From: a candidate division FCPU426 bacterium
GTDB taxonomy: Bacteria > Oederibacteriota > Muellerivitia > Muellerivitales > Muellerivitaceae
DNA: 64,000 nucleotides
Direction: 5' to 3'
NCBI GenBank assembly: GCA_963796105.1
Contig: CAWCKJ010000003.1
Span: 672,001 to 736,000, forward strand
Below are positions 29,885 to 56,642 of the stretch, piece after piece. The notes under the pieces are model-generated. The model ran no database searches, was not told where the DNA came from, and worked only from the letters and a program-made list of their open reading frames with translations. The translations under genes were made by a program, and so were the position numbers. Every line of letters begins with the position of its first letter. Position 1 is the first letter of the stretch.

Positions 29885-31984
29885 TTATTGAAATTGACTT
29901 GCCGCCCCAGTTAATCCTTGATTTCGCATGCTGTTGATTTGCTGGAGTTGTTGGGCGGAAACGGAAATCGGTCTTCCCGGGAAAGCTTTCAAGTTGAGTG
30001 TAAAATATAATTGTTTTCCAGAATTGGGGTCTTCGGTGTAGCTGATCTGGGCTTCCCAATCATGTAAATCCCGGTAGATACTTAATGAACGGGTAATATA
30101 TTTCGCATTGGTTACATCATAATTTTCTATTAGTGCGAGCCTGTAATTTGTAAAAAATGCGAAATCGACCTCGCCGCCAACTTGAAATGTAGGAAGTGAC
30201 GGGGAAGGGAAATAACCTATGTTGCTGACATTAGGATCAACGTAATTACCGTTAATCATAAACCGCCACATATCCCGGGGACTTTTTAGGTTAATAACCG
30301 AATTTATGTCTTTCACCGCGTTGTCCTGGATTGAATAATCCATGATGGCTAAATAATTATAAAGGGGAGAAGGGGTAATATAGATTTCCTGGCGGAAATA
30401 GGTTAATCGGGAAGCTTCTGTTCCCACCATAATGTTAAAATCATAGGAGGTACTTGAGCGGATTCTAAATAATGAGCCTCCCAAAAACTCAACCGCGCCC
30501 GTTAAGAGGTTGGACGTAATTCCATGCGGCGGATCAGTGGAACGAATATTATCCAGTTTTTGATTAAAGGTATAACCAAGTGTCGAGGTTGCGTATTCCG
30601 TCCATCTCGCTGTCCAGGTGTTATTAGCGTCTAAAGTATGTGTTTCCCCGGAATTAGTCCCGTTCAAATCAGGCTTATCTTGAAAATTCTCGTTCATCGC
30701 GATTCGTGAGAATAAAGTTTGTGTTTGAAAAAGCTGGGCACTTTGTCCGACTCCCACTTCCCCAGTTAAGTGGTTTACATAATAGCCATCCGTTAAAGTA
30801 TAGGTATGATCCCCAGACAAACTCAAATCCCACTTTAACCAATTCCTTCCAATTAACCGCTGTGGAAAAAGATTGAAATTAAATTGCGGCAGGGATTGAA
30901 GGCTGCGGGTGAAATGGGTTTCAGTTGTATCGCCAATGGAAAAATCAGGGTTTTCCTGACGCCGGAGTAAAAAGCTAAAAGTATATTGGAGGCGGGTCAA
31001 TGTTGCCGAAAGATCATATTCACGATAAGTTGAAACCAAACTCGGGTCCCGACGAGCCACCGAGTAATCCTGGCTGAACATTCCATCTTCAGGATAGTCC
31101 ACCTCCAACCGGCCTTGAAAGTTGGATGAAAATGCCCAAAGTCCCCTGGCTCTCGATTCCCAACGTAATCGATGGGTGTCTTTTTCGTCGATTCCATATC
31201 CATAAAGCGATAAAGCCGAATATTCGTTTAATCCCAATTCATGCCTGACTCCCAGGCCGAGCCCTTTTTTGAAAAAGTAATCCGTATAGAGAGCGCCATA
31301 GCTCGTCGGATTAAAAAGATAGCTTTCAGTCAAAAGAACATAATTACCAAGGTAGTCGGTTTGTCCCGTGGAAACCGAAAATGGCGTTTTCAAGTCATGA
31401 ATGGTTCGAACAAAAAACGGAAAGTAAAATACCGGCACCTTGCCTATATATAGCACAACATTTTCCGCGACTAAATAATCGCCTGAATATATGGTGATCT
31501 TCCCAGTCTTCATGTAAAAATGCCGGTATCCCTCCGGATAATCGCAAGTGGTTGTGACAGCATCCTTGATAATAATTTTTTGATCCTTGATATCGATCTC
31601 CGAACCAGTGCTAATCCATGGCGGAGAGGTGGTTTTTATGTTGTAAGCCTTTCCCTCTCTCGTCTTCAAGTTGTAATTTAAACTATTGGCCTCAATTTCA
31701 TCGGCTTCGCTCTGCCAGACAACATGTCCTTTGGCTTCCACCTCTTGCGCCGTCACGTCATAGCGAATACTGTCAGCATATAAATTGACTTTATCCTGTT
31801 GGATGTGGACTTGCCCTTTTGCCATAACGATATTTTGATCCCTCAGATACTCGATGGTATCGGCTTGCAAACGAACCTGGCCGTTAAGGGAAAAAGAGAG
31901 TTCGGCCCGAAGTGGACTGGATAAAATAATCCAAGCCAAAAGATAAAACAAAGAAACGGATATTTTTCTGTGGCGGAAATTCAT
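29885..31984 (-). CDS. LPS-assembly protein LptD-like
   Basis: N-terminal OstA-like jellyroll ([17 protein letters not shown]), TTTCD, PVFYFP, barrel-like C-terminus with RDLHDW. Confidence 0.75.
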
Positions 31985-42138: not shown

Positions 42139-45100
42139 TTACCTGATGAAAATAATCCTCTTGGTTTTCCGGTCCATGGGTTCCACCAGATAGAATAGGT
42201 AAACCCCGCTCGCGCAGGTATCCCCATACTTGTTGGACCCGTCCCAGAAGAAGCTGCCTTGGAACGGCGCTTCCAGGTACCGGCTGTCCAATGTCTTGAT
42301 GTGCTCCCCCGCCGAGTTGTAAACGGTTAATTGGAAGGGCCCGGGATATTGGCTCGTCCCCACGAAGATGGATACCGGCTCTCCCCCTCCCTTGAACACG
42401 TTCTTCGTCACAGTGAAGTAATCCACCGTCGGAGTCCATGTCGGGATCTGGGTCATCGAGGAAGTCTCCGTGGGTGTGAAGGTCACCGTGGGCGTTAAGG
42501 TCCATATGGGTGTGTTGGTTTTCGTCGGCGTCGGGGTGCGAGTGGAAGTCGGAGTCCGGCTAAAGGTGGGAGTGGACGTTGAGGTTCGGGTATTGGTCAA
42601 GGTCGGGGTTGAAGTGTATGTCCGGGTGAAGGTCGGGGTGCGGGTATTCGTGGGGGTATTGGTGGCAGTGGGCGTGTTGGTCGAAGTCCTGGTATTCGTA
42701 GCGGTATAGGTGTTCGTCGGGGTGTAGCTAGGCGTGGGTGTCTTGGTATTCGTGGGGGTAAAGGAGGTGGTAGGGGTGTTGGTCGAAGTCCTGGTATTCG
42801 TAGCGGTATAGGTGTTCGTCGGGCTGTAGCTAGGCGTCGGAGTGTAGGTATTCGTGGAGGTAAAGGTGGGGGTAGGGGTGTTGGTGGTTGTAAAAGTGTT
42901 GGTGGGGGTAGTTGTATTGGTCGGGGTATTCGTGTTGGTGGGCGTGTTGGTGGACGTGGGGGTGTTGGTCGGCGTGTGTGTTGGGGTCAAAGTAGGGGTA
43001 TTCGTGGGCGTATTGGTGTTAGTCGGGGTATTGGTATTGGTCGGGGTATTCGTGACTGTATAGGTGTTGGTGGGAGTTGAGGTATTGGTAGCGGTATTTG
43101 TATTGGTGGGAGTATTGGTGTCCGTCGGCGTATTAGTGTTAGTTGTAGTGTTGGTCGCGGTATAGGTGTTAGTCGATGTATTGGTATTGGTCGGTGTGGC
43201 GGTATCAGTCGGAGTGTTCGTATTCGTCGGGGTGTAAGTGGCGGTATTGCTGTTAGTCGGCGTATTCGTGAAGGTCTGAGTGTTGGTATTGGTAGGTGTA
43301 TTGCTGTTTGTGGGTGTGTAGGTCGGTGTCGGAGTAAGCGTGCTGGTCGGCGTATTCGTGGGGGTATATGTATTTGTGGGTGTGGAAGTGTTCGTCGGCG
43401 TGTAGCTGGGTGTAAATGTGAATACGGGCGTATAGGTGGAGGTATTGGTCGGAGTCGGGGTGGGAGTCAGGGTCGATGTATCCGTGGGTGTCGATGTTGG
43501 GGTGTTGGTGCTCGTGGGTGTGTTGGTCGGGGTCGGGGTGTTGGTATTGGTTGGCGTGTTCGTGGGTGTGTAAGTATTCGTCGGAGTGAAAGTGTCAGTC
43601 GATGTAAATAAGGGAGTGTAGGTCCACGTAGGGGTTTCAGTGGATGTATCGGTTGGAGTAGGAGTTGGCGTCTGGGTGGGAGTGGACGTGTAAGTAGGTG
43701 TCGGAGTGGTTGTGGGGGTATTAGTCGAGGTATTGGTCGGGGTCGAAGTGGGTGTGGCTGTCGGCGTGGGAGTAGGTGTCGTGGTTGGAGTATTGGTGGA
43801 CGTCGGTGAAGGAGTACGCGTCGGAGTGACAGTAAAGGTGTTCGTGGGAGATGTCGTCCCGGTTGGGGTATCAGTAGGAGTGGACGTAACCGTGGGCGTG
43901 GAAGTTGGAGTCGGAGTAGAGGTGGTGGTTGGAGTCAAAGTCGGGGTTTTGGTTGGGGTGGAAGTGGGTGTAGAAGTAGGGGTGGGGGTGGAGGTAGTCG
44001 TGGGAGTAGGAGTTGGTGTGGGTGTTGGAGTCCTAGTCGGGGTGGAAGTCGGCGTCGGCGTGGGGGTCGTGGTAGGCGTTGGCGTCGGCGTATTGGTGGG
44101 TGTAGAAGTCGGGGTATTCGTAGGGGTGGGAGTGGGCGTCACCGTCGGGGTGGGAGTAGGTGTAGGGGTCGGGGTCTTGGTCGGGGTGATGGTAGGGGTA
44201 TTCGTGGGCGACTGGGTCCCTGTGGGCGTATTGGTCGGAGTCGGGGTGATGGTTGGCGTGTGGGTGGGGGTTGGAGTCGGAGTGGTGGTGGGTGTAGGTG
44301 TATTCGTGGCAGTAGGAGTGGGGGTGGGAGTCCTCGTGGGAGTCGGGGTTGGGGTTGTTGTGGGGGTGGGGGTCGGGGTATTGGTGGGCGTTCTTGTGGG
44401 GGTATTGGTCGGAGTCGGGGTGGGTGTCGCGGTGGGTGTTGGAGTAGGCGTATTGGTAGGTGTAGGCGTAGGGGTATTGGTGGGTGTGGAAGTCGGAGTC
44501 GTGCTCGGGGTGGGTGTAGGTGTTTTCGTCGGGGTGGGTGTTGGGGTATTAGTTGGGGTCGGCGTTGGAGTGGTGGTGGGTGTCGGCGTCGGTGTATTAG
44601 TAGGGGTAGGCGTCGGAGTCCTTGTTGGAGTAGGCGTCGGCGTGGTGGTGGGAGTGGGCGTGGGCGTATTAGTCGGTGTGGGGGTCGGTGTATTCGTCGG
44701 AGTTGGCGTAGGAGTTGTTGTCGGGGTCGGGGAAGGGGTTGGGGTTGGCGTCCGAGTCGGGGTATTAGTAGGTGTCGGTGTGGGCGTAATCGTGGGTGTA
44801 TTGGTGGGAGTCGGGGTCGGAGTCTTGGTTGGGGTAATAGTAGGCGTATTCGTGGGCGACTGAGTCCCGGTTGGGGTATTCGTGGGCGTCGGGGTGATAG
44901 TTGGCGTGTGGGTGGGTGTAGGGGTGGGAGTGGTTGTAGGAGTAGGAGTCGGAGTAGGGGTGGGCGTTCTTGTTGGTGTATTGGTAGGAGTAGGTGTCGG
45001 AGTGGTTGTCGGTGTTGGAGTCGGGGTGTTAGTAGGGGTAGGTGTGGGAGTTCTCGTCGGGGTAGGCGTTGGGGTTGTCGTAGGGGTGGGAGTCGGCGTA

Positions 45101-47385
45101 TTCGTGGGTGTATTGGTGGGTGTTAGAGTAGGAGTATTCGTCGGGGTTCGGGTCGGGGTTGGAGTAGGCGTGTTGGTAGGTGTCGGAGTGGGGGTATTCG
45201 TGGGCGTCGGGGTGGGAGTGGTGGTCGGCGTCGGAGTAGGTGTCCTTGTCGGGGTCGGTGTGAGGGTATTGGTGGGGGTTGGAGTAGGCGTTGTCGTCGG
45301 GGTAGGAGTCGGGGTGTTGGTAGGCGTGGGAGTAGGAGTCCTGGTTGGGGTTGGGGTCGTTGTGGGTGTAGGAGTAGGCGTATTGGTAGGGGTCGGACTG
45401 GGGGTAGGTGTGGGTGTGGGGGTAGGTGTTCTGGTCGGTGTGGGAGTTGGGGTTACGGTCGGGGTGGGGGTAGGAGTGTTAGTGGGAGTCGGAGTAGGAG
45501 TATTGGTTGGAGTGGGTGTTGGGGTCCTGGTCGGGGTTGGAGTGGGTGAGGGTGTCGGGGTAGGAGTCGGTGTGTTGGTGGGGGTAGGCGTCGGAGTCCT
45601 GGTTGGAGTAGGGGTTGGCGAAGCCGTGGGAGTCGGAGTAGGGGAAGTTGTGGGAGTCGGAGTAGGAGTATTGGTTGGAGTGGGTGTTGGGGTCCTGGTC
45701 GGGGTTGGAGTGGGTGAGGGTGTCGGGGTAGGAGTCGGTGTGTTGGTGGGGGTAGGCGTCGGAGTCCTAGTCGGAGTTGGGGTTGGCGAAACCGTAGGAG
45801 TCGGAGTGGGGGAGGTTGTGGGGGTCGGAGTAGGAGTCGGAGTCCTGGTCGGGGTTGGAGTTGGCGATACCGTGGGCGTGGGGGTGGGGGTATTGGTCGG
45901 GGTCGGAGTGGGACTCCTCGTGGGGGTGGGGGTAGGTGTATTCGTAAAAGTATAAGTGTAAGTAGGAGTGTACGTGAAAGTGTAGGTGTTGGTATGGGTG
46001 AAAGTGGGCGTAACAGCCGGGGTCGGGGTGTAGGTATAAGTGTAGGTGGGGGTGGGAGTATAGGTATAGGTGTAGGTGTTGGTATGGGTAAAGGTGGGTG
46101 TGATGGCGATGGTCGGCGTATAGGTATAGGTGTGGGTGGGGGTCGGGGTCGAAGTGAAGGTATAAGTGTAGGTGTAGGTATAAGTGTAAGTATGGGTAAA
46201 GGTGGGGGTTAGCGCCGGGGTGGGGGTATAGGTAAATGTCGGGGTATAGGTAAAAGTATGAGTATAAGTCGGCGTGTTGGACCAGGTAAAGGTCGGGGTC
46301 CAGCAAGGGATGTTGAAAGTAACCGTGTTGGAGGTTTTTCCCTCGATGGAAAAGTTATTGGTAGCAGTCGTGCATTGGTTGTTCACCATGCCGTTGTTGT
46401 CCGTCGCGTATTCCTGGAAGGTGACACAGGAATTTCCGGCAATTCCTTCCGGCCAGATGACGGTAAGCTGGCTTCCTCCCAATCCGTTGACATAGGGCTC
46501 GGTGGCGATGTAATTCCCGTTTTGTACCGAAACACCACCCATATCCAGAGTTTGTCCCTGCCAATAGCTCTGGCTGATCGTGTCCGTCATGGTGACGGCG
46601 CCAGTCTGGGGACCACCGGTGTTGCAGACCGTCAGGCAGAACTCATAGGTGATGTTGTTTCCGGATTCATTGGGTCCGCCGCAGACGGCTTTCCCGACCG
46701 TGAAGGCGGGCGGCCCCAGGGTCGTCGAGGAGGCCGGAATCGCCACAGCTTGCGAGAAAAACAAAGCCCCATTACAGTTGCTGGTGCTGTAGTCCCCGTT
46801 AGCGTCCGTGGATACATAAGGGACCCTCGCGCCGCTCACGGGGTTCCAAAGGCTCTGGCCCCAGCAGCATTCGGAAGAAGTGGCGCTGACCTGGGACGCG
46901 CTGCCCCATCCGCTGGTGCTGTAGTCGGTCGCGTACCAGTTGGTGGCGGGGGGAGTCGTGGGATTCCCCGAACTGATGTAATCCATCTTGAGGCCGCCGC
47001 TTCCGCTGGTGATCTCGGAGTGCTGGCCGTTGGAGCAGGTGATGTCCAGGTCCCAGGAGGAGTAAAGGTTATTGCAGGCGGTGTTTTGGGTATAAACGCT
47101 GAGATAAACTTGGGAGCCGGTTAAGAGGGACGTGGGAACGGTGATGCAGCCCGGGGGACAACTGCCGCTGCCGTCCCAGTTGCAATAATTGATCTGTCCC
47201 AGGTAAACGCCGCCCACATAGACCTGGGACCAGTCGTCGCTGGATACGCAAATCTTGGCGGAACTAGGCGTGCATTGGGACCAGGATTGGAGCGGAAGAC
47301 CCAAGAGAAGCAAAAATCCAAAAACTTTTAAACTCCGGATCATCCAAAAGGATGGTTGGAAACTTCTTAATGCGCGATGATTCAT
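42139..47385 (-). CDS. Large secreted protein: Cys-rich head, DUF11-like domain, ~1300-aa Thr/Pro stalk, FlgD/CTD-like C-terminus
   Basis: Signal peptide; [13 protein letters not shown]...[12 protein letters not shown] repeats; [10 protein letters not shown]...[16 protein letters not shown]. Confidence 0.8.
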
Positions 47386-47644
47386 TTTTCGTAGTTAACC
47401 ATTTACTGAGACCCTTCAAAGCCGCAGTTTGACCAGGAATATTTTTATAATAAACATTCAAAACATAAGCATTAAAATCGTTTTAACATCAAAAGTATCT
47501 AACAAATTATCGCATAAGAAAACTGTTTTTTCGACCCGAGTTACGTTAAATCCGGCGGGAAACGAAAATCAATAGCGCCCTATCCACCTACCTGTTAAAC
47601 GAGTAATTAATCAAAAAAATGAAGATTCTCTGAATAAAAGCGGT

Positions 47645-47683
47645 TTTACTTGGATTTAACATTGAAATAAATAGAAGTCTATA
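47645..47683 (+). promoter_or_regulatory. Pho-box-like 11-bp-period repeats upstream of ppx
   Basis: TTTACT, TTAACA, ATAAAT, TCTATA starting at 47645, 47656, 47667, 47678. Confidence 0.45.
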
Positions 47684-47762: not shown

Positions 47763-49274
47763 ATGCCGACCCTATGCGCGCTTGATGTGGGTTCCAACGC
47801 CATGCGCCTCGCCATCGGTTTTCTGGACCATGAAAAAAAGCTCCACGTCGTCGAGGACCTGCGGGAACCAGTCCGGCTGGGCCAGGATGTTTTCAAAAGG
47901 GGCGCCATTTCCCGCGAGAGCACCCGCAGGACCATAGAGGCGTTCAAGAGGTTCAAGGAAGTTATCGGCCAGCACCAGGTGGTCAAGACCCGGGCTGTGG
48001 CCACGAGCGCGGTCCGGGAGGCCAAAAACCGGGATGTGTTCCTGAAAAAGGTATTCCAAGCCACCGGCATCGAGCTTAAGCCCATCACCTCGGAAGAGGA
48101 AGCCCTGCTGGTTTACTTGGCGGTATCCGAGAAAATCCCCCTGGAGGGAAAAACCTCCATGCTGGTGGACATCGGCGGCGGCAGCGTGGAAGTCACCCTG
48201 GCCCGGGACGGAAAGATTCTCCTCTCGGAAAGCTTCCAGATGGGGGCCGTGCGCCTCCTGCAGGTTCTCGACAAGAGCAAGTACGGCGAGAAGGACTTCA
48301 ACCGGATGGTCCAGGAATACGTGGACGCGGCCCGGAACCGTTTCAACCAAAAGCTCGCCGGGCAGAAGGTGGATGTCTGCGTGGGAACCGGGGGAAACCT
48401 GGATACCCTATTGTTTTTGAAAGAGCGTTTTTGGCGTGTCAAGGACCCTTCCTATATTACGCGCCCGGAGCTTAATTCCCTCCTGGCCCGCCTGCGCAAG
48501 CTCTCCTATGACGAACGAGTCACCAAACTGGGTCTGCGCCCCGACAGGGCGGACGTCATTCTGCCCGCCATGATGGTCCTTCAAAAAATCATGGAAGTCG
48601 GCCGCATCTCCCGCATTCACATCCCGAATGTCGGCGTCAAGGAAGGCCTGTTGATTGACATGGTCTCGGAGCTCCTGACCGGCCGGCCGGCCCAGCGTCG
48701 GGACGAGGTCTTAGCCACTGTCCGGCAGGCCGGCTTGAAATACTCCTTTGACCAGGCCCATGCGGAAACAGTTACGAAGCTCTCCCTGGAACTTTTCGAC
48801 CGGACGCGCCAACTGCACCGCTTGGGGGAGGATAACCGGCTTCTCCTTGAAGTGGCCGCCCAGCTCCACGATATCGGCCAGTTCATCAGCTACGGCTCCC
48901 ATCACAAACATTCCTATTATTTGATAAAAGCCTCCCAGTTGATGGGGCTTACCCCCGGCCAAGTCGAGCTTGTCGCCAACATCGCGCGTTATCACCGCAA
49001 GGCGCTCCCCAAGGCCACTCACGAGAATTACCGGCTTCTCCCGGCCCGGGAAAGGCTTATGGTCTCAAAACTCGCCGCCATCCTGCGCGTCGCGGACGCA
49101 ATGGACCACGATCACGCCTCCAAAGTCCAGCATTTCGCGGTCCAATACAAAAAACCCCATTTTTCTCTGAAAATGATGGGACAAGGGGATATGCTCTTGG
49201 AGCGCTGGGCGCTCCTGAAAAAATGCGATTTATTCGAGAAGGTATTCAAGGTTAAATTTTCAGTCAAAAGTTGA
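47763..49274 (+). CDS. ppx: Ppx/GppA family exopolyphosphatase with HD domain
   Basis: LDVGSNAMRL, ATSAVREA, DIGGGSVE, RADVI, LHDIG, HHKHSYY, ARYHRK; AAGGAG RBS. Confidence 0.9.
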   Translation: MPTLCALDVGSNAMRLAIGFLDHEKKLHVVEDLREPVRLGQDVFKRGAISRESTRRTIEAFKRFKEVIGQHQVVKTRAVATSAVREAKNRDVFLKKVFQATGIELKPITSEEEALLVYLAVSEKIPLEGKTSMLVDIGGGSVEVTLARDGKILLSESFQMGAVRLLQVLDKSKYGEKDFNRMVQEYVDAARNRFNQKLAGQKVDVCVGTGGNLDTLLFLKERFWRVKDPSYITRPELNSLLARLRKLSYDERVTKLGLRPDRADVILPAMMVLQKIMEVGRISRIHIPNVGVKEGLLIDMVSELLTGRPAQRRDEVLATVRQAGLKYSFDQAHAETVTKLSLELFDRTRQLHRLGEDNRLLLEVAAQLHDIGQFISYGSHHKHSYYLIKASQLMGLTPGQVELVANIARYHRKALPKATHENYRLLPARERLMVSKLAAILRVADAMDHDHASKVQHFAVQYKKPHFSLKMMGQGDMLLERWALLKKCDLFEKVFKVKFSVKS

Positions 49275-49318
49275 GGGGATAACCCCCTTTTGGCCCTGAT
49301 CATCAAGGAGACAATTTT

Positions 49319-50014
49319 ATGGCCCGTACTAAACCCAAGGAAATCGAGGGAAAACTCATCGCGGTGGAGGGGCTGGACGGTTCCGGCAAATCCACCCAAA
49401 TCCGCCTCCTCAAACGCTGGCTGGAGCTGGAAGGCTACAAGGTTTTCTTTACCGAGTGGAACTCCTCCGAGCTGGTCAAGAAAGCCACCAGGAAGGGTAA
49501 GAAGAAAAAGCTCCTCACTCCCACCACATTCTCACTCATTCATGCCACGGATTTCGCCGACCGTTACGAACGGCAGATTCTTCCCCTCCTGAAAGGGGGT
49601 TATCTCGTCCTCGCGGACCGCTACTGCTACACGGCCTTCGCCCGCGACGCGGTCCGGGGCTGTGACAGGGACTGGCTAAGGAAGCTTTACCGTTTCGCGC
49701 GCAAACCCGACATCACCTTTTTCTTTCAGCTTCCCCTGGAGGTGGCCCTGGGGCGAATCCTGGAGGGCCGCCCCATGCTGAAGTACCACGAGGCCGGGAT
49801 GGACATGGGCTTTTCCCAGGACCCCTACGAGTCCTTTAGGATTTTCCAGGGCAAGATTTACGAGGAATACGGCCGCATCGGCAAGGAATTTCCATTCGAG
49901 AACGTGGATGCCACCGTTCCCATGGAAAGCCAGCAGGCTTTCATGCGGGATATCGTCCGGAAGCGCATCGACCTCAAGAAATTTAAATTCAAGGCAGTGG
50001 GGGTGAAATCATGA
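49319..50014 (+). CDS. Thymidylate-kinase-fold protein A (candidate polyphosphate kinase subunit)
   Basis: EGLDGSGKST P-loop, ATDFADR, LADRY, Lys-rich RKGKKKK, YHEAGMD. Confidence 0.75.
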   Translation: MARTKPKEIEGKLIAVEGLDGSGKSTQIRLLKRWLELEGYKVFFTEWNSSELVKKATRKGKKKKLLTPTTFSLIHATDFADRYERQILPLLKGGYLVLADRYCYTAFARDAVRGCDRDWLRKLYRFARKPDITFFFQLPLEVALGRILEGRPMLKYHEAGMDMGFSQDPYESFRIFQGKIYEEYGRIGKEFPFENVDATVPMESQQAFMRDIVRKRIDLKKFKFKAVGVKS

Positions 50015-50865
50015 AGCCAAAACGCTTTTATGGGAAAGGCCTTCCCAACGTCGATCCTACCCTTCTTAAGGGGACATTAATCATCATCGAGGGCTCCGAT
50101 GGCGCCGGCCGTTCCACCCAGATCGGCTTCCTCCAGAATTGGCTGGAGCGCAGGGGCGTTCCCGTCGTTATGGTGGGGTTGAAACGCTCCGAGCTGGTGG
50201 GCGAGGCCTTGGCCGAGGCCATGCAGGGTAATACTCTCAACGCCATCACCTTGAACCTCTTTTATGCCACCGATTTCGCCGACCAGTTGGAACGGGTGAT
50301 CGTGCCGGCCTTGAAAGCCGGCTTCCTGGTCCTGGCCGACCGCTATATCTACACCCTCATGGCCCGGGATATCGTCAGGGGTTCCTCCATGGAATGGCTC
50401 AGGGAGATTTACGGTTTCGCGGTGGTCCCGGACGCGGTCTTCTACCTGAACGTGAGCCCCAAAATCCTTGCTGAGAGGAATTTCAGCAAACGGGGGTTCC
50501 TGGACTATTGGGAATCAGGGATGGATATCCAGCGGGTTGGCGGCATGTACGACAACTTCGTCAAATACCAGGGAAGGCTTCACAAGGTATTCCAGAATTT
50601 CCAGAGGGAATACGGCTTTTACACCATTCAGGGAAGCAGGTCCATGGTTTCCATCGCGAGGGAAATCCGGGGCCGGGTTGAGAAGATTTTGTTGGCCAAG
50701 GACCTGGCGGAGAAACCGGTTCCCCAAGCCAAGGAATTAACCCCTAATCCTGTTGAAAAAACCGAAAAAACGCCTGAAAAGACCCTGGAAAAAACCGTGG
50801 AGAAACCAGCGGCCAAAATTCACGAAACCCCGGTCGAAAAAGTCCACGTTCCGGATAAACAATAA
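50011..50865 (+). CDS. Thymidylate-kinase-fold protein B (candidate polyphosphate kinase subunit)
   Basis: EGSDGAGRST (Arg in place of the Walker A Lys), ATDFADQ, LADRY, YWESGMD; ATGA overlap with the previous gene. Confidence 0.75.
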   Translation: MKPKRFYGKGLPNVDPTLLKGTLIIIEGSDGAGRSTQIGFLQNWLERRGVPVVMVGLKRSELVGEALAEAMQGNTLNAITLNLFYATDFADQLERVIVPALKAGFLVLADRYIYTLMARDIVRGSSMEWLREIYGFAVVPDAVFYLNVSPKILAERNFSKRGFLDYWESGMDIQRVGGMYDNFVKYQGRLHKVFQNFQREYGFYTIQGSRSMVSIAREIRGRVEKILLAKDLAEKPVPQAKELTPNPVEKTEKTPEKTLEKTVEKPAAKIHETPVEKVHVPDKQ

Positions 50866-54469: not shown

Positions 54470-55795
54470 TTACCCCACGGGAATCGTCAGCACCACCGTA
54501 AAGGTGCTTCCCTTCCCCTCCTCGCTTCTCAGGGAAACTTCCCCGTTCATCTTCTCCACCAGGTGCTTCACGATGGAAAGGCCCAGTCCCGTCCCGCCCG
54601 CCTCCCGGCTCCGGGAGACATCCACCCGGAAAAACCTCTCGAAAACCCTCGATTGGGCCTCAGGGGGTATTCCCGGCCCATGGTCCTCCACCAACAATTC
54701 CATCCGGCCGTCCGGCCCCTGGGCGGAATAAACCCTGATTTCGGTCTTGGCCGCCGAGTATTTCACGGCGTTGTCCAGCAGGTTCTCGAACACGTGGAAC
54801 AACCCCTCCCTGTGCGCCTGGACCCGGACTCCTGGCGGAATCTCCTGGCGGATCATGATCTCCTTGGCCTCCCATTTGGCCTTTAACAGCTCGATCGCCT
54901 GTTGGGCCACCTCGGAGGGGTCCACCGGCTCCATCGAGGTGATGTAGAGCCCGCTCTCGATCTTGGACAGCTCCAGCACGTCGGTAATGAGGGCGTTCAA
55001 GCGGTGGGCCTGGTCGGAGATTTTCTTCAGGAACAAGCCCCGGTTTTTCTTGTCTTCCAGGGCGCCGGAAAGAAGGGTCTCCACATAGCCCAAGATCCCG
55101 GTCAAGGGCGTCCTCAGCTCATGGGACACGTTGGCCACGAACTCGGTCCTCATGCGCATCAGGCGCTTCAAGGAGGTGATGTCCGAGAAAACCACGATCT
55201 GGCCGAGGAGGGTGCCGTCCGCCACGCGGACCGCCCCCACGCTGACCGCGAAATACTTCTCATCCTTCCCCGCGAACTCGATCTCGCCAGCGGCCCTTCC
55301 CTGCGCCTTGGATTGGGCCAGGAGGTCCGCCAGAACCGGGTGGCGGACCACCTCCAGGTAATGCTTTCCTAGGTGGTCCTTTTCCAGGGTTTCCAGGATT
55401 TTCTCAGCCGAGGGGTTCATCAGCACGATGCGGTCGGCCTGGTTCAGGAGCAGGACTCCTTCCCCCATGCTGTTCAGGATGACATTCAGCATGGACTCGT
55501 TGGAACCGAGCCTTTGGAGCATTTCCTCGAAATTGCGGCCTGGAATGAAAACATCCCTGCCGCTCAAGGATTCGGGTGAGGGGGACGTTGCTGGGTCGGG
55601 GTCAGCGGGCTTTTCCGGTTTTGCCTGGTCCGAACCCGCGGGATGGAGGATAAACAACATGACCAGGCCCATCCCCATTCCAATGATGAGTAAAAAGGCC
55701 GAGTACCATTCCAGAAGCCTCAGGAACCCGAGGATTACGGCCAGCGCAATGGCCAGGAGAAAGACCGTCCAGAATAGGCGTTTGGAAATTCTCAT
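54470..55795 (-). CDS. PhoR-like PAS sensor histidine kinase
   Basis: FVANVSHELRTPLT, NLLDNAVKY, DHGPGI, FERFFRVD..RSRE.GGTGLGLSIVKH. Confidence 0.88.
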   Translation of the reverse strand: MRISKRLFWTVFLLAIALAVILGFLRLLEWYSAFLLIIGMGMGLVMLFILHPAGSDQAKPEKPADPDPATSPSPESLSGRDVFIPGRNFEEMLQRLGSNESMLNVILNSMGEGVLLLNQADRIVLMNPSAEKILETLEKDHLGKHYLEVVRHPVLADLLAQSKAQGRAAGEIEFAGKDEKYFAVSVGAVRVADGTLLGQIVVFSDITSLKRLMRMRTEFVANVSHELRTPLTGILGYVETLLSGALEDKKNRGLFLKKISDQAHRLNALITDVLELSKIESGLYITSMEPVDPSEVAQQAIELLKAKWEAKEIMIRQEIPPGVRVQAHREGLFHVFENLLDNAVKYSAAKTEIRVYSAQGPDGRMELLVEDHGPGIPPEAQSRVFERFFRVDVSRSREAGGTGLGLSIVKHLVEKMNGEVSLRSEEGKGSTFTVVLTIPVG

Positions 55796-55855: not shown

Positions 55856-56539
55856 TTAAACCTCTTCCTTGAACAAGTAGCCATATCCCTTGACCGTCTG
55901 GATGTTTTTCTCATAGAGGCCCAGCTTTTCCCTGAGACGCCGCACGTGGACGTCCACCGTCCGGGTAGTCCCGAAATAATCATATCCCCAGACGTTGTTC
56001 AAAAGGACGTCCCGGGAAAGGACCCGGCCGGAGTGGGTGAGGAAATAGTCCAGGAGCTCGAATTCCTTGGCGGTCAAATCCATCTTCTGGTTCTTCAGGG
56101 AAACCTCGTGCTTGGCCCTGTTCAAGGAGAGGTCCTTGAATTTCTGGATGGCCTCGCCCTCCTGGGACTTGGAAAAACGCCTCAAGACGGCCCTCACCCT
56201 CGCCAGCAGTTCCTTGATAGAGAAGGGCTTTGTGACATAGTCGTCCGCCCCCAGCTCCAGACCCACGATCTTGTCAGACTCCTCCCCCTTGGCCGTCAGC
56301 ATCACGACCGGGATATGGTTGGTCTTGGGATTGGCCTTCAGGGTCTTGCAGACAGTCAAGCCGTCCGTCTTGGGAAGCATCAGGTCCAAAAGGACCAGGT
56401 CCGGCATTTTCTCAGGAATTTTCTTCAGGGCGGCCTCACCGTCCATTTCGGAGAGCACGCGGTAGCCGTCTTTTTCCAGGTTGTAGGTCAAAAGGTCAAC
56501 CAGGTCCTTCTCGTCTTCCACGACAAATATTTGTTTCAT
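55856..56539 (-). CDS. PhoB/PhoP-like OmpR-family response regulator
   Basis: VVEDE, LLDLMLP, LTAKGEESD, GADDYVTKPF, RTVDVHVRRLREK. Confidence 0.9.
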   Translation of the reverse strand: MKQIFVVEDEKDLVDLLTYNLEKDGYRVLSEMDGEAALKKIPEKMPDLVLLDLMLPKTDGLTVCKTLKANPKTNHIPVVMLTAKGEESDKIVGLELGADDYVTKPFSIKELLARVRAVLRRFSKSQEGEAIQKFKDLSLNRAKHEVSLKNQKMDLTAKEFELLDYFLTHSGRVLSRDVLLNNVWGYDYFGTTRTVDVHVRRLREKLGLYEKNIQTVKGYGYLFKEEV

Positions 56540-56598: not shown

Positions 56599-56642
56599 AT
56601 TATAGACAGGCGGTTCAAAAGCCACTGTTAACAGCTTGTAAA
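56599..56642 (-). promoter_or_regulatory. Pho-box-like site and -10 hexamer upstream of the phoB-like gene
   Basis: Minus strand TTTACA-AGCTG-TTAACA (56642-56626) and TATAAT (56604-56599). Confidence 0.55.

What the first reader, a model, noticed from the sequence alone, without database searches (positions are those of the whole stretch)
47763..50865. ppx plus two coupled thymidylate-kinase-fold genes: candidate bacterial heteromeric polyphosphate kinase
Seen: two paralogous TMK-fold ORFs overlap by ATGA directly after ppx. They share ATDFAD, LADRY and Y-x-E-x-GMD. One has a normal P-loop (GSGKST) and a Lys cluster (RKGKKKK); the other has GAGRST. Neither has the TREPGG motif typical of bacterial Tmk. 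Established: PPK2 enzymes use this fold. From memory (needs verifying), a ppx-adjacent TMK-like pair in Sulfolobus has been described as a heteromeric family-3 polyphosphate kinase. Inference: a polyphosphate synthesis/degradation module, likely mis-annotated as tmk and plausibly Pho-regulated.
Basis: partly seen in the sequence, partly recalled or inferred. Interest (0 to 1): 0.75.

Follow-up and report, generated by a model that had tools for sequence, protein, structure and literature searches.

The report
Bacterial two-subunit PPK3 polyphosphate kinase
Two overlapping genes labelled "thymidylate kinase" behind a polyphosphate-degrading gene belong to the recently published PPK3 group and likely form a two-part enzyme that makes and spends polyphosphate; this is an untested bacterial copy of a known system, whose partner subunit keeps an active-site arginine that the studied archaeal partner has lost.

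Summary
The scan has reported it before on other DNA (33 notes).

ORF A (49319-50014) matches the structure of the Sulfolobus catalytic-subunit homologue STK_15430 at E 4e-63, against 2e-16 for true Tmk. ORF B (50011-50865) groups with Sulfolobales-type regulatory subunits (100/100 in a tree without outgroup).

The genome has a separate canonical tmk and two class-III-like ppk2; no ppk1 was found. Among 99 genomes of the phylum, 36 carry the pair and 11 others carry PPK1, with no overlap. A PhoP-type box lies upstream of ppx.

One difference from the published enzyme: B keeps the DRX arginine (114 of 119 diverse B-type domains), whose loss the paper uses to explain the dead Sulfolobus subunit. 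B instead has Arg for the P-loop Lys and lacks the basic cleft. It likely binds nucleotide or phosphate without turnover. No activity was tested.

The parts
47645..47661 (+). PhoP/PhoB-type box candidate TTTACT-N5-TTAACA, 118 bp before the ppx ATG
   Evidence: 2 mismatches to TTAACA-N5-TTAACA; rank 104 in the genome with a matrix made from relatives only; the Bacillus box is TT(A/T/C)ACA at 11-bp period (PMC11870197 passage)
47472..47488 (+). second box candidate TTAAAA-N5-TTAACA, 291 bp before ppx; could instead serve the divergent gene
   Evidence: one of 21 sites in the genome with at most 1 mismatch
47763..49274 (+). ppx, exopolyphosphatase / Ppx-GppA family with HD domain
   Evidence: Pfam PF02541, PF21447, PF01966; best NCBIfam match TIGR03706 exopolyphosphatase, below its cut-off
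49319..50014 (+). ORF A, cPPK3-type catalytic subunit (231 aa)
   Evidence: E 4e-63 to PDB 2plr/5h70; 49% identical to Sulfolobales-type cPPK3 against 26% to the genome's own Tmk; tree 100/100
50011..50865 (+). ORF B, rPPK3-type partner subunit (284 aa; P-loop Lys replaced by Arg; DRX Arg kept; 54-aa Lys/Glu/Pro-rich variable tail)
   Evidence: tree without outgroup groups it with Sulfolobales-type rPPK3; residue table; model pLDDT 90.8, best Foldseek hit 5h70
54470..55795 (-). PhoR-like sensor kinase (associated; likely regulator)
   Evidence: best NCBIfam PnpS and phoR_proteo, both below cut-off; a kinase/regulator pair lies near the PPK3 pair in family loci
55856..56539 (-). PhoB-like response regulator (associated), with a box at 56626-56642 upstream
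   Evidence: best NCBIfam TIGR02154 PhoB, 273.5 bits against cut-off 296.2; its upstream box ranks 2nd in the genome

Best explanation
ORFs A and B belong to the PPK3 clade of thymidylate-kinase-fold proteins and likely assemble into a heteromeric polyphosphate kinase, in which A is predicted to move phosphate reversibly between ATP/ADP and polyphosphate and B likely activates it without turning over substrate. A keeps the P-loop Lys, the DRX Arg and a basic patch (K59, K61-63, R82, K155) where Tmk binds dTMP (shown in sequence; its role as the polyP cleft is inferred from the paper's docking). B has Arg at the P-loop Lys and lacks most of that patch, but keeps DRY and other conserved Arg residues, so it likely still binds a nucleotide or phosphate as an allosteric site (inferred). 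Ppx would degrade the polymer. With no PPK1 found and two class-III-like PPK2 enzymes present, PPK3 is likely this organism's polyP-making enzyme, likely under PhoB-type control (inferred).
For: (1) A matches STK_15430 at E 4e-63, against 2e-16 for the best true Tmk; the paper names STK_15430 as the Saci_2019 (cPPK3) homologue. (2) Trees: A, B and Sulfolobales-type c/r subunits lie apart from 9 canonical Tmks (SH-aLRT 99, quick tree); without outgroup the split A+cPPK3 versus B+rPPK3 is 100/100. (3) The EP motif is absent from both proteins. (4) A separate canonical tmk is present (188 bits against cut-off 83), and in 29 of 36 phylum genomes with the pair. (5) Context in 80 GTDB loci: ppx 39, CHAD 24, sixA 21, any polyP or phosphate gene 51. 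(6) Natural A-B fusions exist (P0040, P0044, P0050, P0067, P0110), as do A-B-Ppx-HD fusions (P0127, P0151, P0156, P0253). (7) Strong PPK1 hits occur in 11 of 99 phylum genomes, none among the 36 with the pair; the one family member with PPK1 (G055) has no hit for the pair. (8) Complex model: score 0.68, best of 3 controls 0.00; the mark was reached by 116 of 157 solved complexes and 2 of 215 mismatched pairs; runs agree in at least 96% of contacts, partner pLDDT at least 88. (9) Box TTAACA-N5-TTAACA within 2 mismatches in 9 of 17 ppx upstream regions at spacing 11, against a shuffle mean of 0.4.
Against: No activity is known for any bacterial member. B fails the paper's stated mark of rPPK3, the loss of the DRX Arg. 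With Tmk as outgroup, the long-branched Sulfolobales rPPK3 is pulled away from B; a B+rPPK3 clade is only not rejected (p-AU 0.46). 29 of 80 loci show no polyP gene within the flank held, 24 of them titled Verrucomicrobiota. 25 of 36 genomes with the pair also have PPK2, whereas the paper says most PPK3 genomes have neither PPK1 nor PPK2. In 7 of the 36 no separate canonical Tmk was found, one of them 96% complete. A passes the TIGR00041 dTMP kinase cut-off narrowly (84.7 against 83.25). The complex score may come from likeness to solved Tmk-fold dimers. The box consensus was chosen by eye from the same ppx regions, spacing 12 also scored 5 of 17, and the window's nearer site ranks only 104th. 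The Sulfolobus enzyme favours ATP formation 50-fold, so net polyP synthesis in vivo is an inference.
Confidence: 0.85

Rival explanations
1. Both subunits are catalytic: B is not a dead partner but a second active site (for example another phosphotransfer step or another nucleotide), and the Sulfolobus rPPK3 is a degenerate special case.
For: B keeps DRY in 78 of 79 GTDB loci and DR in 114 of 119 aligned B-type domains at 50% clustering. D30, R34, R59, R111, R119, R123 and R156 are at least 95% conserved. Sulfolobales-type rPPK3 has DGY and sits on a very long branch nested among Arg-keeping B proteins.
Against: The P-loop Lys is Arg in 82 of 99 aligned B-type domains, Cys in 9 and Lys in 1. 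Lys-to-Arg changes in Walker A usually stop catalysis while keeping binding (recalled, e.g. RecA K72R). B lacks K59, K61-63, R82 and K155 of A. In several fusions the B half has a decayed P-loop while the A half is intact.
Confidence: 0.08
2. The pair is a divergent (d)NMP kinase, a second thymidylate or broad nucleotide kinase that happens to sit beside ppx.
For: Tmk fold; A passes TIGR00041 narrowly; public names are 'dTMP kinase'; 7 of 36 genomes with the pair gave no separate Tmk hit.
Against: No EP motif; a canonical tmk and a dNK-like gene lie elsewhere in the genome; Saci_2019 and Saci_2020 made no dTDP; the bioRxiv version says the earlier Tmk claim for STK_15430 followed only ADP; recurrent polyP context and Ppx fusions.
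Confidence: 0.04
3. The module acts on another phosphorylated compound handled by the Ppx/GppA protein, such as (p)ppGpp, rather than on polyP.
For: Ppx and GppA are one family, and the window's ppx is below the cut-off of every NCBIfam model.
Against: CHAD, SixA, pst and phoU neighbours, the exclusion with PPK1 and the assayed Sulfolobus orthologue all point to polyP.
Confidence: 0.03

Closest known systems
SaPPK3 of Sulfolobus acidocaldarius (Saci_2019 cPPK3 + Saci_2020 rPPK3; PMC12995831)
   Same: Two tandem Tmk-fold genes, catalytic type first, behind ppx; no EP motif; basic patch on the first subunit only; separate canonical tmk; same clade. Compared here through PDB STK_15430 and two Sulfolobales-like metagenome operons (L118, L119), not through the Saci proteins themselves.
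   Different: Bacterial host. B keeps the DRX Arg and R119 (Sulfolobales type: DGY and W) and has an extra N-terminal arm and a 54-aa tail. No sixA or CHAD in this locus. Two PPK2 genes in the genome. PhoB/PhoR-like genes and a PhoP-type box nearby. Not assayed.
Canonical bacterial thymidylate kinase Tmk (TIGR00041, PF02223)
   Same: Fold, P-loop and DRX motif.
   Different: 26-31% identity to the genome's own Tmk; no REP/EP motif; separate clade; comes as an unequal pair.
PPK2, including two-domain class II enzymes with an inactive partner domain
   Same: P-loop kinase core, polyP/nucleotide chemistry, active plus partner module (as the paper notes).
   Different: No PF03976 hit in A or B; the genome's PPK2 genes are elsewhere (C2:442010, C2:216800).

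Membership tests
PPK3 | Falls in a clade of the dTMPK superfamily apart from canonical Tmk, with the Sulfolobales enzymes | tested here: met
   SH-aLRT 99 in a quick tree of 58 rows; PDB E 4e-63 against 2e-16
PPK3 | Two adjacent paralogues, one cPPK3 type and one rPPK3 type | tested here: met
   A+cPPK3 versus B+rPPK3 split 100/100 without outgroup; with outgroup the place of rPPK3 is unsure (p-AU 0.46)
PPK3 | dTMP-binding residues including the EP motif not conserved | tested here: met
   TEWNSS and VGLKRS against TREPGG
PPK3 | Basic polyP cleft on cPPK3, absent from rPPK3 | tested here: met
   K61-63, R82 and K155 are shared by A and Sulfolobales-type cPPK3 and absent from B. The paper's own residue list is in pictures (Figs S14, S16) that I could not see, so the residues are my mapping.
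PPK3 | Encoded with polyP genes (ppx, sixA, CHAD, pst) | tested here: met
   ppx directly upstream; sixA and CHAD not in this locus
PPK3 | Canonical dTMPK encoded elsewhere in the genome | tested here: met
   C12:192347-193039, 188 bits
PPK3 | Reversible polyP/ADP-ATP kinase activity, raised by the partner; no dTMP kinase activity | not testable with these tools
   needs enzyme assays
PPK3 | Heteromeric assembly (alpha2beta2 in Sulfolobus) | tested here: inconclusive
   1:1 model 0.68 against best control 0.00, possibly from likeness to Tmk-fold dimers; tetramer not modelled; natural fusions support contact
Sulfolobus-type inactive rPPK3 (ORF B only) | DRX arginine replaced | tested here: not met
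   B has DRY (R111); L118 and L119 partners have DGY. B is therefore filed as an Arg-keeping variant, not as the described dead subunit.
Canonical thymidylate kinase Tmk | EP motif and thymidine pocket; groups with canonical Tmk | tested here: not met
PPK2 | PF03976 match | tested here: not met

The most novel reading that the evidence does not exclude
The Arg-keeping PPK3 is the ancestral and common form: its second subunit holds a working nucleotide or phosphate site (an allosteric energy-charge sensor, or a second catalytic site), and under PhoB control it replaces PPK1 as the main polyphosphate-making enzyme across many uncultured bacterial phyla, far beyond the 'few bacteria' in print.
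Probability: 0.3. Interest if true: 0.6.

Novelty: new variant of a known kind. Interest (0 to 1): 0.32.

Why it matters
A bacterial PPK3 could be assayed at ordinary temperatures. The retained arginine makes one question directly testable: whether the 'regulatory' subunit is a dead scaffold or a ligand-sensing or active partner. The system itself is published, so the gain is incremental.

Tried and rejected
A pattern from the paper's saci_2020 primer found nothing in metagenome contigs, so Saci_2019/2020 were not compared directly; two Sulfolobales-like operons (L118, L119) stood in. Their assignment rests on gene order sixA-ppx-c-r-CHAD and on likeness to STK_15430, not on a name.

No RNA holder was listed, so co-transcription is open. 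The sigma-70 and terminator scan gave nothing useful: 4 promoter-like sites against 1.8 expected, none between the box and ppx, and no terminator on the + strand. A plain alignment of ppx upstream regions showed no conserved block; the repeat was then picked by eye and tested. 5 of 17 ppx upstream regions and 2 of 3 pstS upstream regions lack it (best site 4-5 mismatches). L111 was dropped from that count as a duplicate of L009.

The careful 58-row tree did not finish; the quick tree is cited. The tblastn hit to ppx near the first ppk2 on C2 is mreB, not a second ppx. A weak PPK1-domain hit in G033 (E 4e-5, 468-aa frame), a genome with the pair, was not counted as PPK1 and was not examined.

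The paper's Data S1 could not give a count of bacterial PPK3: the text held is cut at 31,788 of 47,545 rows. Six lineage terms returned 25 rows, one with PPK3. Figs 5, S14, S16 and S19 are pictures, so the paper's tree may already include Arg-keeping bacterial partners. PMC13634411 also uses the name 'PPK3' (listing only); I recall this as a PPK2-type enzyme and did not read it.

Full report
Observation. Pfam gives Ppx-GppA plus HD for the first and Thymidylate_kin for both others. A and B are 38% identical. All quoted motifs are present, and neither protein has the TREPGG/EP motif.

What is published. I read parts 1-5 of 9 of PMC12995831 (abstract, results, discussion, start of methods), parts 2-3 and passages of its supplementary PDF, the first part and one search of Data S1, and passages of the bioRxiv version; no figures. 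It shows that Saci_2019 (cPPK3) makes polyP and ATP, that Saci_2020 (rPPK3) is inactive but raises activity about 6- to 10-fold at 1:1, and that neither makes dTDP. It defines PPK3 as a clade that includes 'a few bacteria', in operons with ppx, sixA, CHAD or pst. It explains the inactivity of rPPK3 by loss of the DRX Arg and of the basic cleft. Searches found no paper on a characterised bacterial member.

Placing A and B. A hits S. tokodaii STK_15430 (2plr/5h70) at E 4e-63; the best true Tmk is at 2e-16. B hits the same entry at 4e-43, and its model (pLDDT 90.8) finds 5h70 first. Two metagenome contigs with the Sulfolobales order sixA-ppx-c-r-CHAD supplied archaeal stand-ins. A is 49% identical to their cPPK3 and 26% to the genome's own Tmk. 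A quick 58-row tree separates all of these from 9 canonical Tmks (SH-aLRT 99) and warns of long branches. A careful 22-row tree without outgroup splits A+cPPK3 from B+rPPK3 at 100/100 and puts window B in a set with the Sulfolobales-type rPPK3 at 100/99. With Tmk included that long branch moves toward Tmk, and a B+rPPK3 clade is only not rejected (p-AU 0.46). B also shares rPPK3-type characters: G-L after strand 2, D-Q-[LI]-E, and Asp at A's K155.

Genome context. G000 (96.8% complete) has a canonical tmk beside a holB-like gene on C12 (188 bits), a dNK-like gene on C3, two PPK2 of the TIGR03709 type and no PPK1 hit. Among all 99 genomes of the phylum, 36 have the pair (27 of 31 in the family, own genome included). 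Eleven have strong PPK1 hits and none of these has the pair; one genome with the pair has a weak hit that I did not examine. Kin are not independent, so this is a pattern, not a test. PPK2 is present in 25 of the 36, unlike the paper's majority. A separate canonical Tmk was found in 29 of the 36; the seven misses are 63-96% complete.

Wider family. B is present in 79 of 80 and directly downstream in 78. Within up to 6 kb, ppx occurs in 39, CHAD in 24, sixA in 21 and any polyP or phosphate gene in 51; 24 of the 29 without carry Verrucomicrobiota titles. Fused A-B proteins occur, as do A-B-Ppx-HD fusions. A 1:1 complex model scored 0.68 against a best control of 0.00; the mark was reached by 116 of 157 solved complexes and 2 of 215 mismatched pairs, runs agreed in at least 96% of contacts and the partner's pLDDT was at least 88. 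The interface lies on helices 65-85 of A and 75-95 of B, which I recall as the usual Tmk dimer face, so the pass may come from likeness to solved dimers.

The point of difference. The Sulfolobales-type partners have DGY; window B has DRY. DRY is kept in 78 of 79 GTDB B proteins (one gap) and DR in 114 of 119 aligned B-type domains among the best 150 representatives at 50% clustering. That set was found with a profile of Arg-keeping proteins, which biases it. In those domains the P-loop Lys is Arg in 82 of 99, Cys in 9 and Lys in 1. B lacks A's K59, K61-63, R82 and K155 but conserves D30, R34, R59, R111, R119, R123 and R156 at 95% or more. The simplest reading is a site that binds but does not turn over, by analogy with Walker A Lys-to-Arg mutants (recalled). 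The Sulfolobales form, on a long nested branch, looks like the derived and more decayed state (inference).

Pho control. A TTAACA-N5-TTAACA repeat lies within 2 mismatches in 9 of 17 ppx upstream regions at spacing 11; spacing 12 gave 5, the other spacings from 8 to 14 gave 0-2, and shuffles gave a mean of 0.4. I chose the consensus by eye from those regions, so this part is circular. It matches the Bacillus box TT(A/T/C)ACA at 11-bp period (passage of PMC11870197). Out of sample, a matrix from relatives ranks the site before the window's phoB-like gene 2nd in the genome and a site upstream of a ROK kinase behind phoU 4th. Of 21 sites with at most 1 mismatch, 10 have a downstream ORF, and 5 of those are ppx, phoB, the gene at the head of the pst cluster, a phosphoesterase and a PhoC-like phosphatase. 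The nearer ppx site ranks only 104th, and 2 of 3 pstS regions lack the repeat. The PhoB/PhoR labels are best hits below cut-off. Regulation is likely, not shown.

Mechanism. Shown: gene order, coupling, clade, residues, genome content. Inferred: A catalyses ADP + polyP(n) to ATP + polyP(n-1) reversibly; B binds A and activates it; Ppx drains the polymer; PPK3 stands in for PPK1 as polyP maker; a PhoB-type regulator controls the operon.

Verdict. The scan has noted it at least 33 times, once with the retained arginine; I had recorded that difference before looking. I file it as an Arg-keeping bacterial variant of PPK3 and score interest 0.32.

Noticed in passing
P0255 (EukProt EP00164 Ancoracysta twista, 794 aa); P0277 (1297 aa); P0344 (Rotaria sordida, 1350 aa): Eukaryote-labelled or SPX-bearing proteins carry a cPPK3-type domain. 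P0255 is SPX + cPPK3-like + DUF2252; P0277 is SPX + MFS + cPPK3-like + DUF2252; P0344 has a hydrophobic N-terminal half followed by a cPPK3-like domain. SPX on a polyP-kinase-like domain recalls the VTC polymerase layout (recalled) and suggests a eukaryotic PPK3-type enzyme under phosphate-signal control. A paper search found nothing, and the scan's notes returned only a bacterial fusion. Contamination or bacterial origin was not excluded. This may deserve more interest than the finding itself.
   Followed up: partly
P0278-P0337: A family of about 60 proteins, mostly about 1200 aa MFS + cPPK3-like + DUF2252/APH-like fusions; the named ones are Elusimicrobiota. 70 of 72 hits score better with the A profile, and most keep GSGK, WNS and DR. 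Already noted by the scan (e1-3239323, e1-1454600).
   Followed up: partly
P0233 (1610 aa), P0343 (968 aa): Large proteins that join an InPase (PF18823) domain to a cPPK3-like domain, on contigs of 80-137 kb; possibly phage-borne (not checked).
   Followed up: no
P0127, P0151, P0156, P0253; P0345, P0346: Fusions of cPPK3 + decayed rPPK3 + Ppx HD domain, and of whole Ppx + cPPK3.
   Followed up: partly
L014, L015, L017, L019, L020, L024-L027, L031, L050, L055, L058, L063-L065, L068, L071: A small basic protein (about 110-175 aa, motif KPxKGRxKDL) lies directly after the B gene in 18 of 80 loci, before CHAD or sixA; not identified.
   Followed up: no
G000:C3:767214-767945 (L144), outside the window: ROK kinase behind phoU; best NCBIfam match polyphosphate-glucose phosphotransferase (below cut-off), with a high-ranking PhoP-type box upstream: a likely polyP consumer.
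   Followed up: partly
L022, L032-L034, L039, L041-L045, L047, L048, L053, L069-L073, L078-L083, L086: In most Verrucomicrobiota-titled loci the pair stands without ppx, sixA or CHAD, often beside a cytidine-deaminase-like gene.
   Followed up: no
window 42139-47385 (-): Divergent 1748-aa secreted-type protein with a very long Thr/Pro repeat tract and a C-terminal domain resembling FlgD-Ig sorting domains (recalled); similar T/P-repeat proteins occur on C2.
   Followed up: no
G000:C3:773260-773400 and C7:166530-166700: Two pstS genes share a nearly identical upstream stretch of about 80 bp with GC-rich palindromes.
   Followed up: no
L036, L040: In L036 (Bathyarchaeota title) A runs into the first half of B in one 462-aa frame and the rest of B is in another frame; in L040 B is in two frames. 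Frameshift or assembly error.
   Followed up: no
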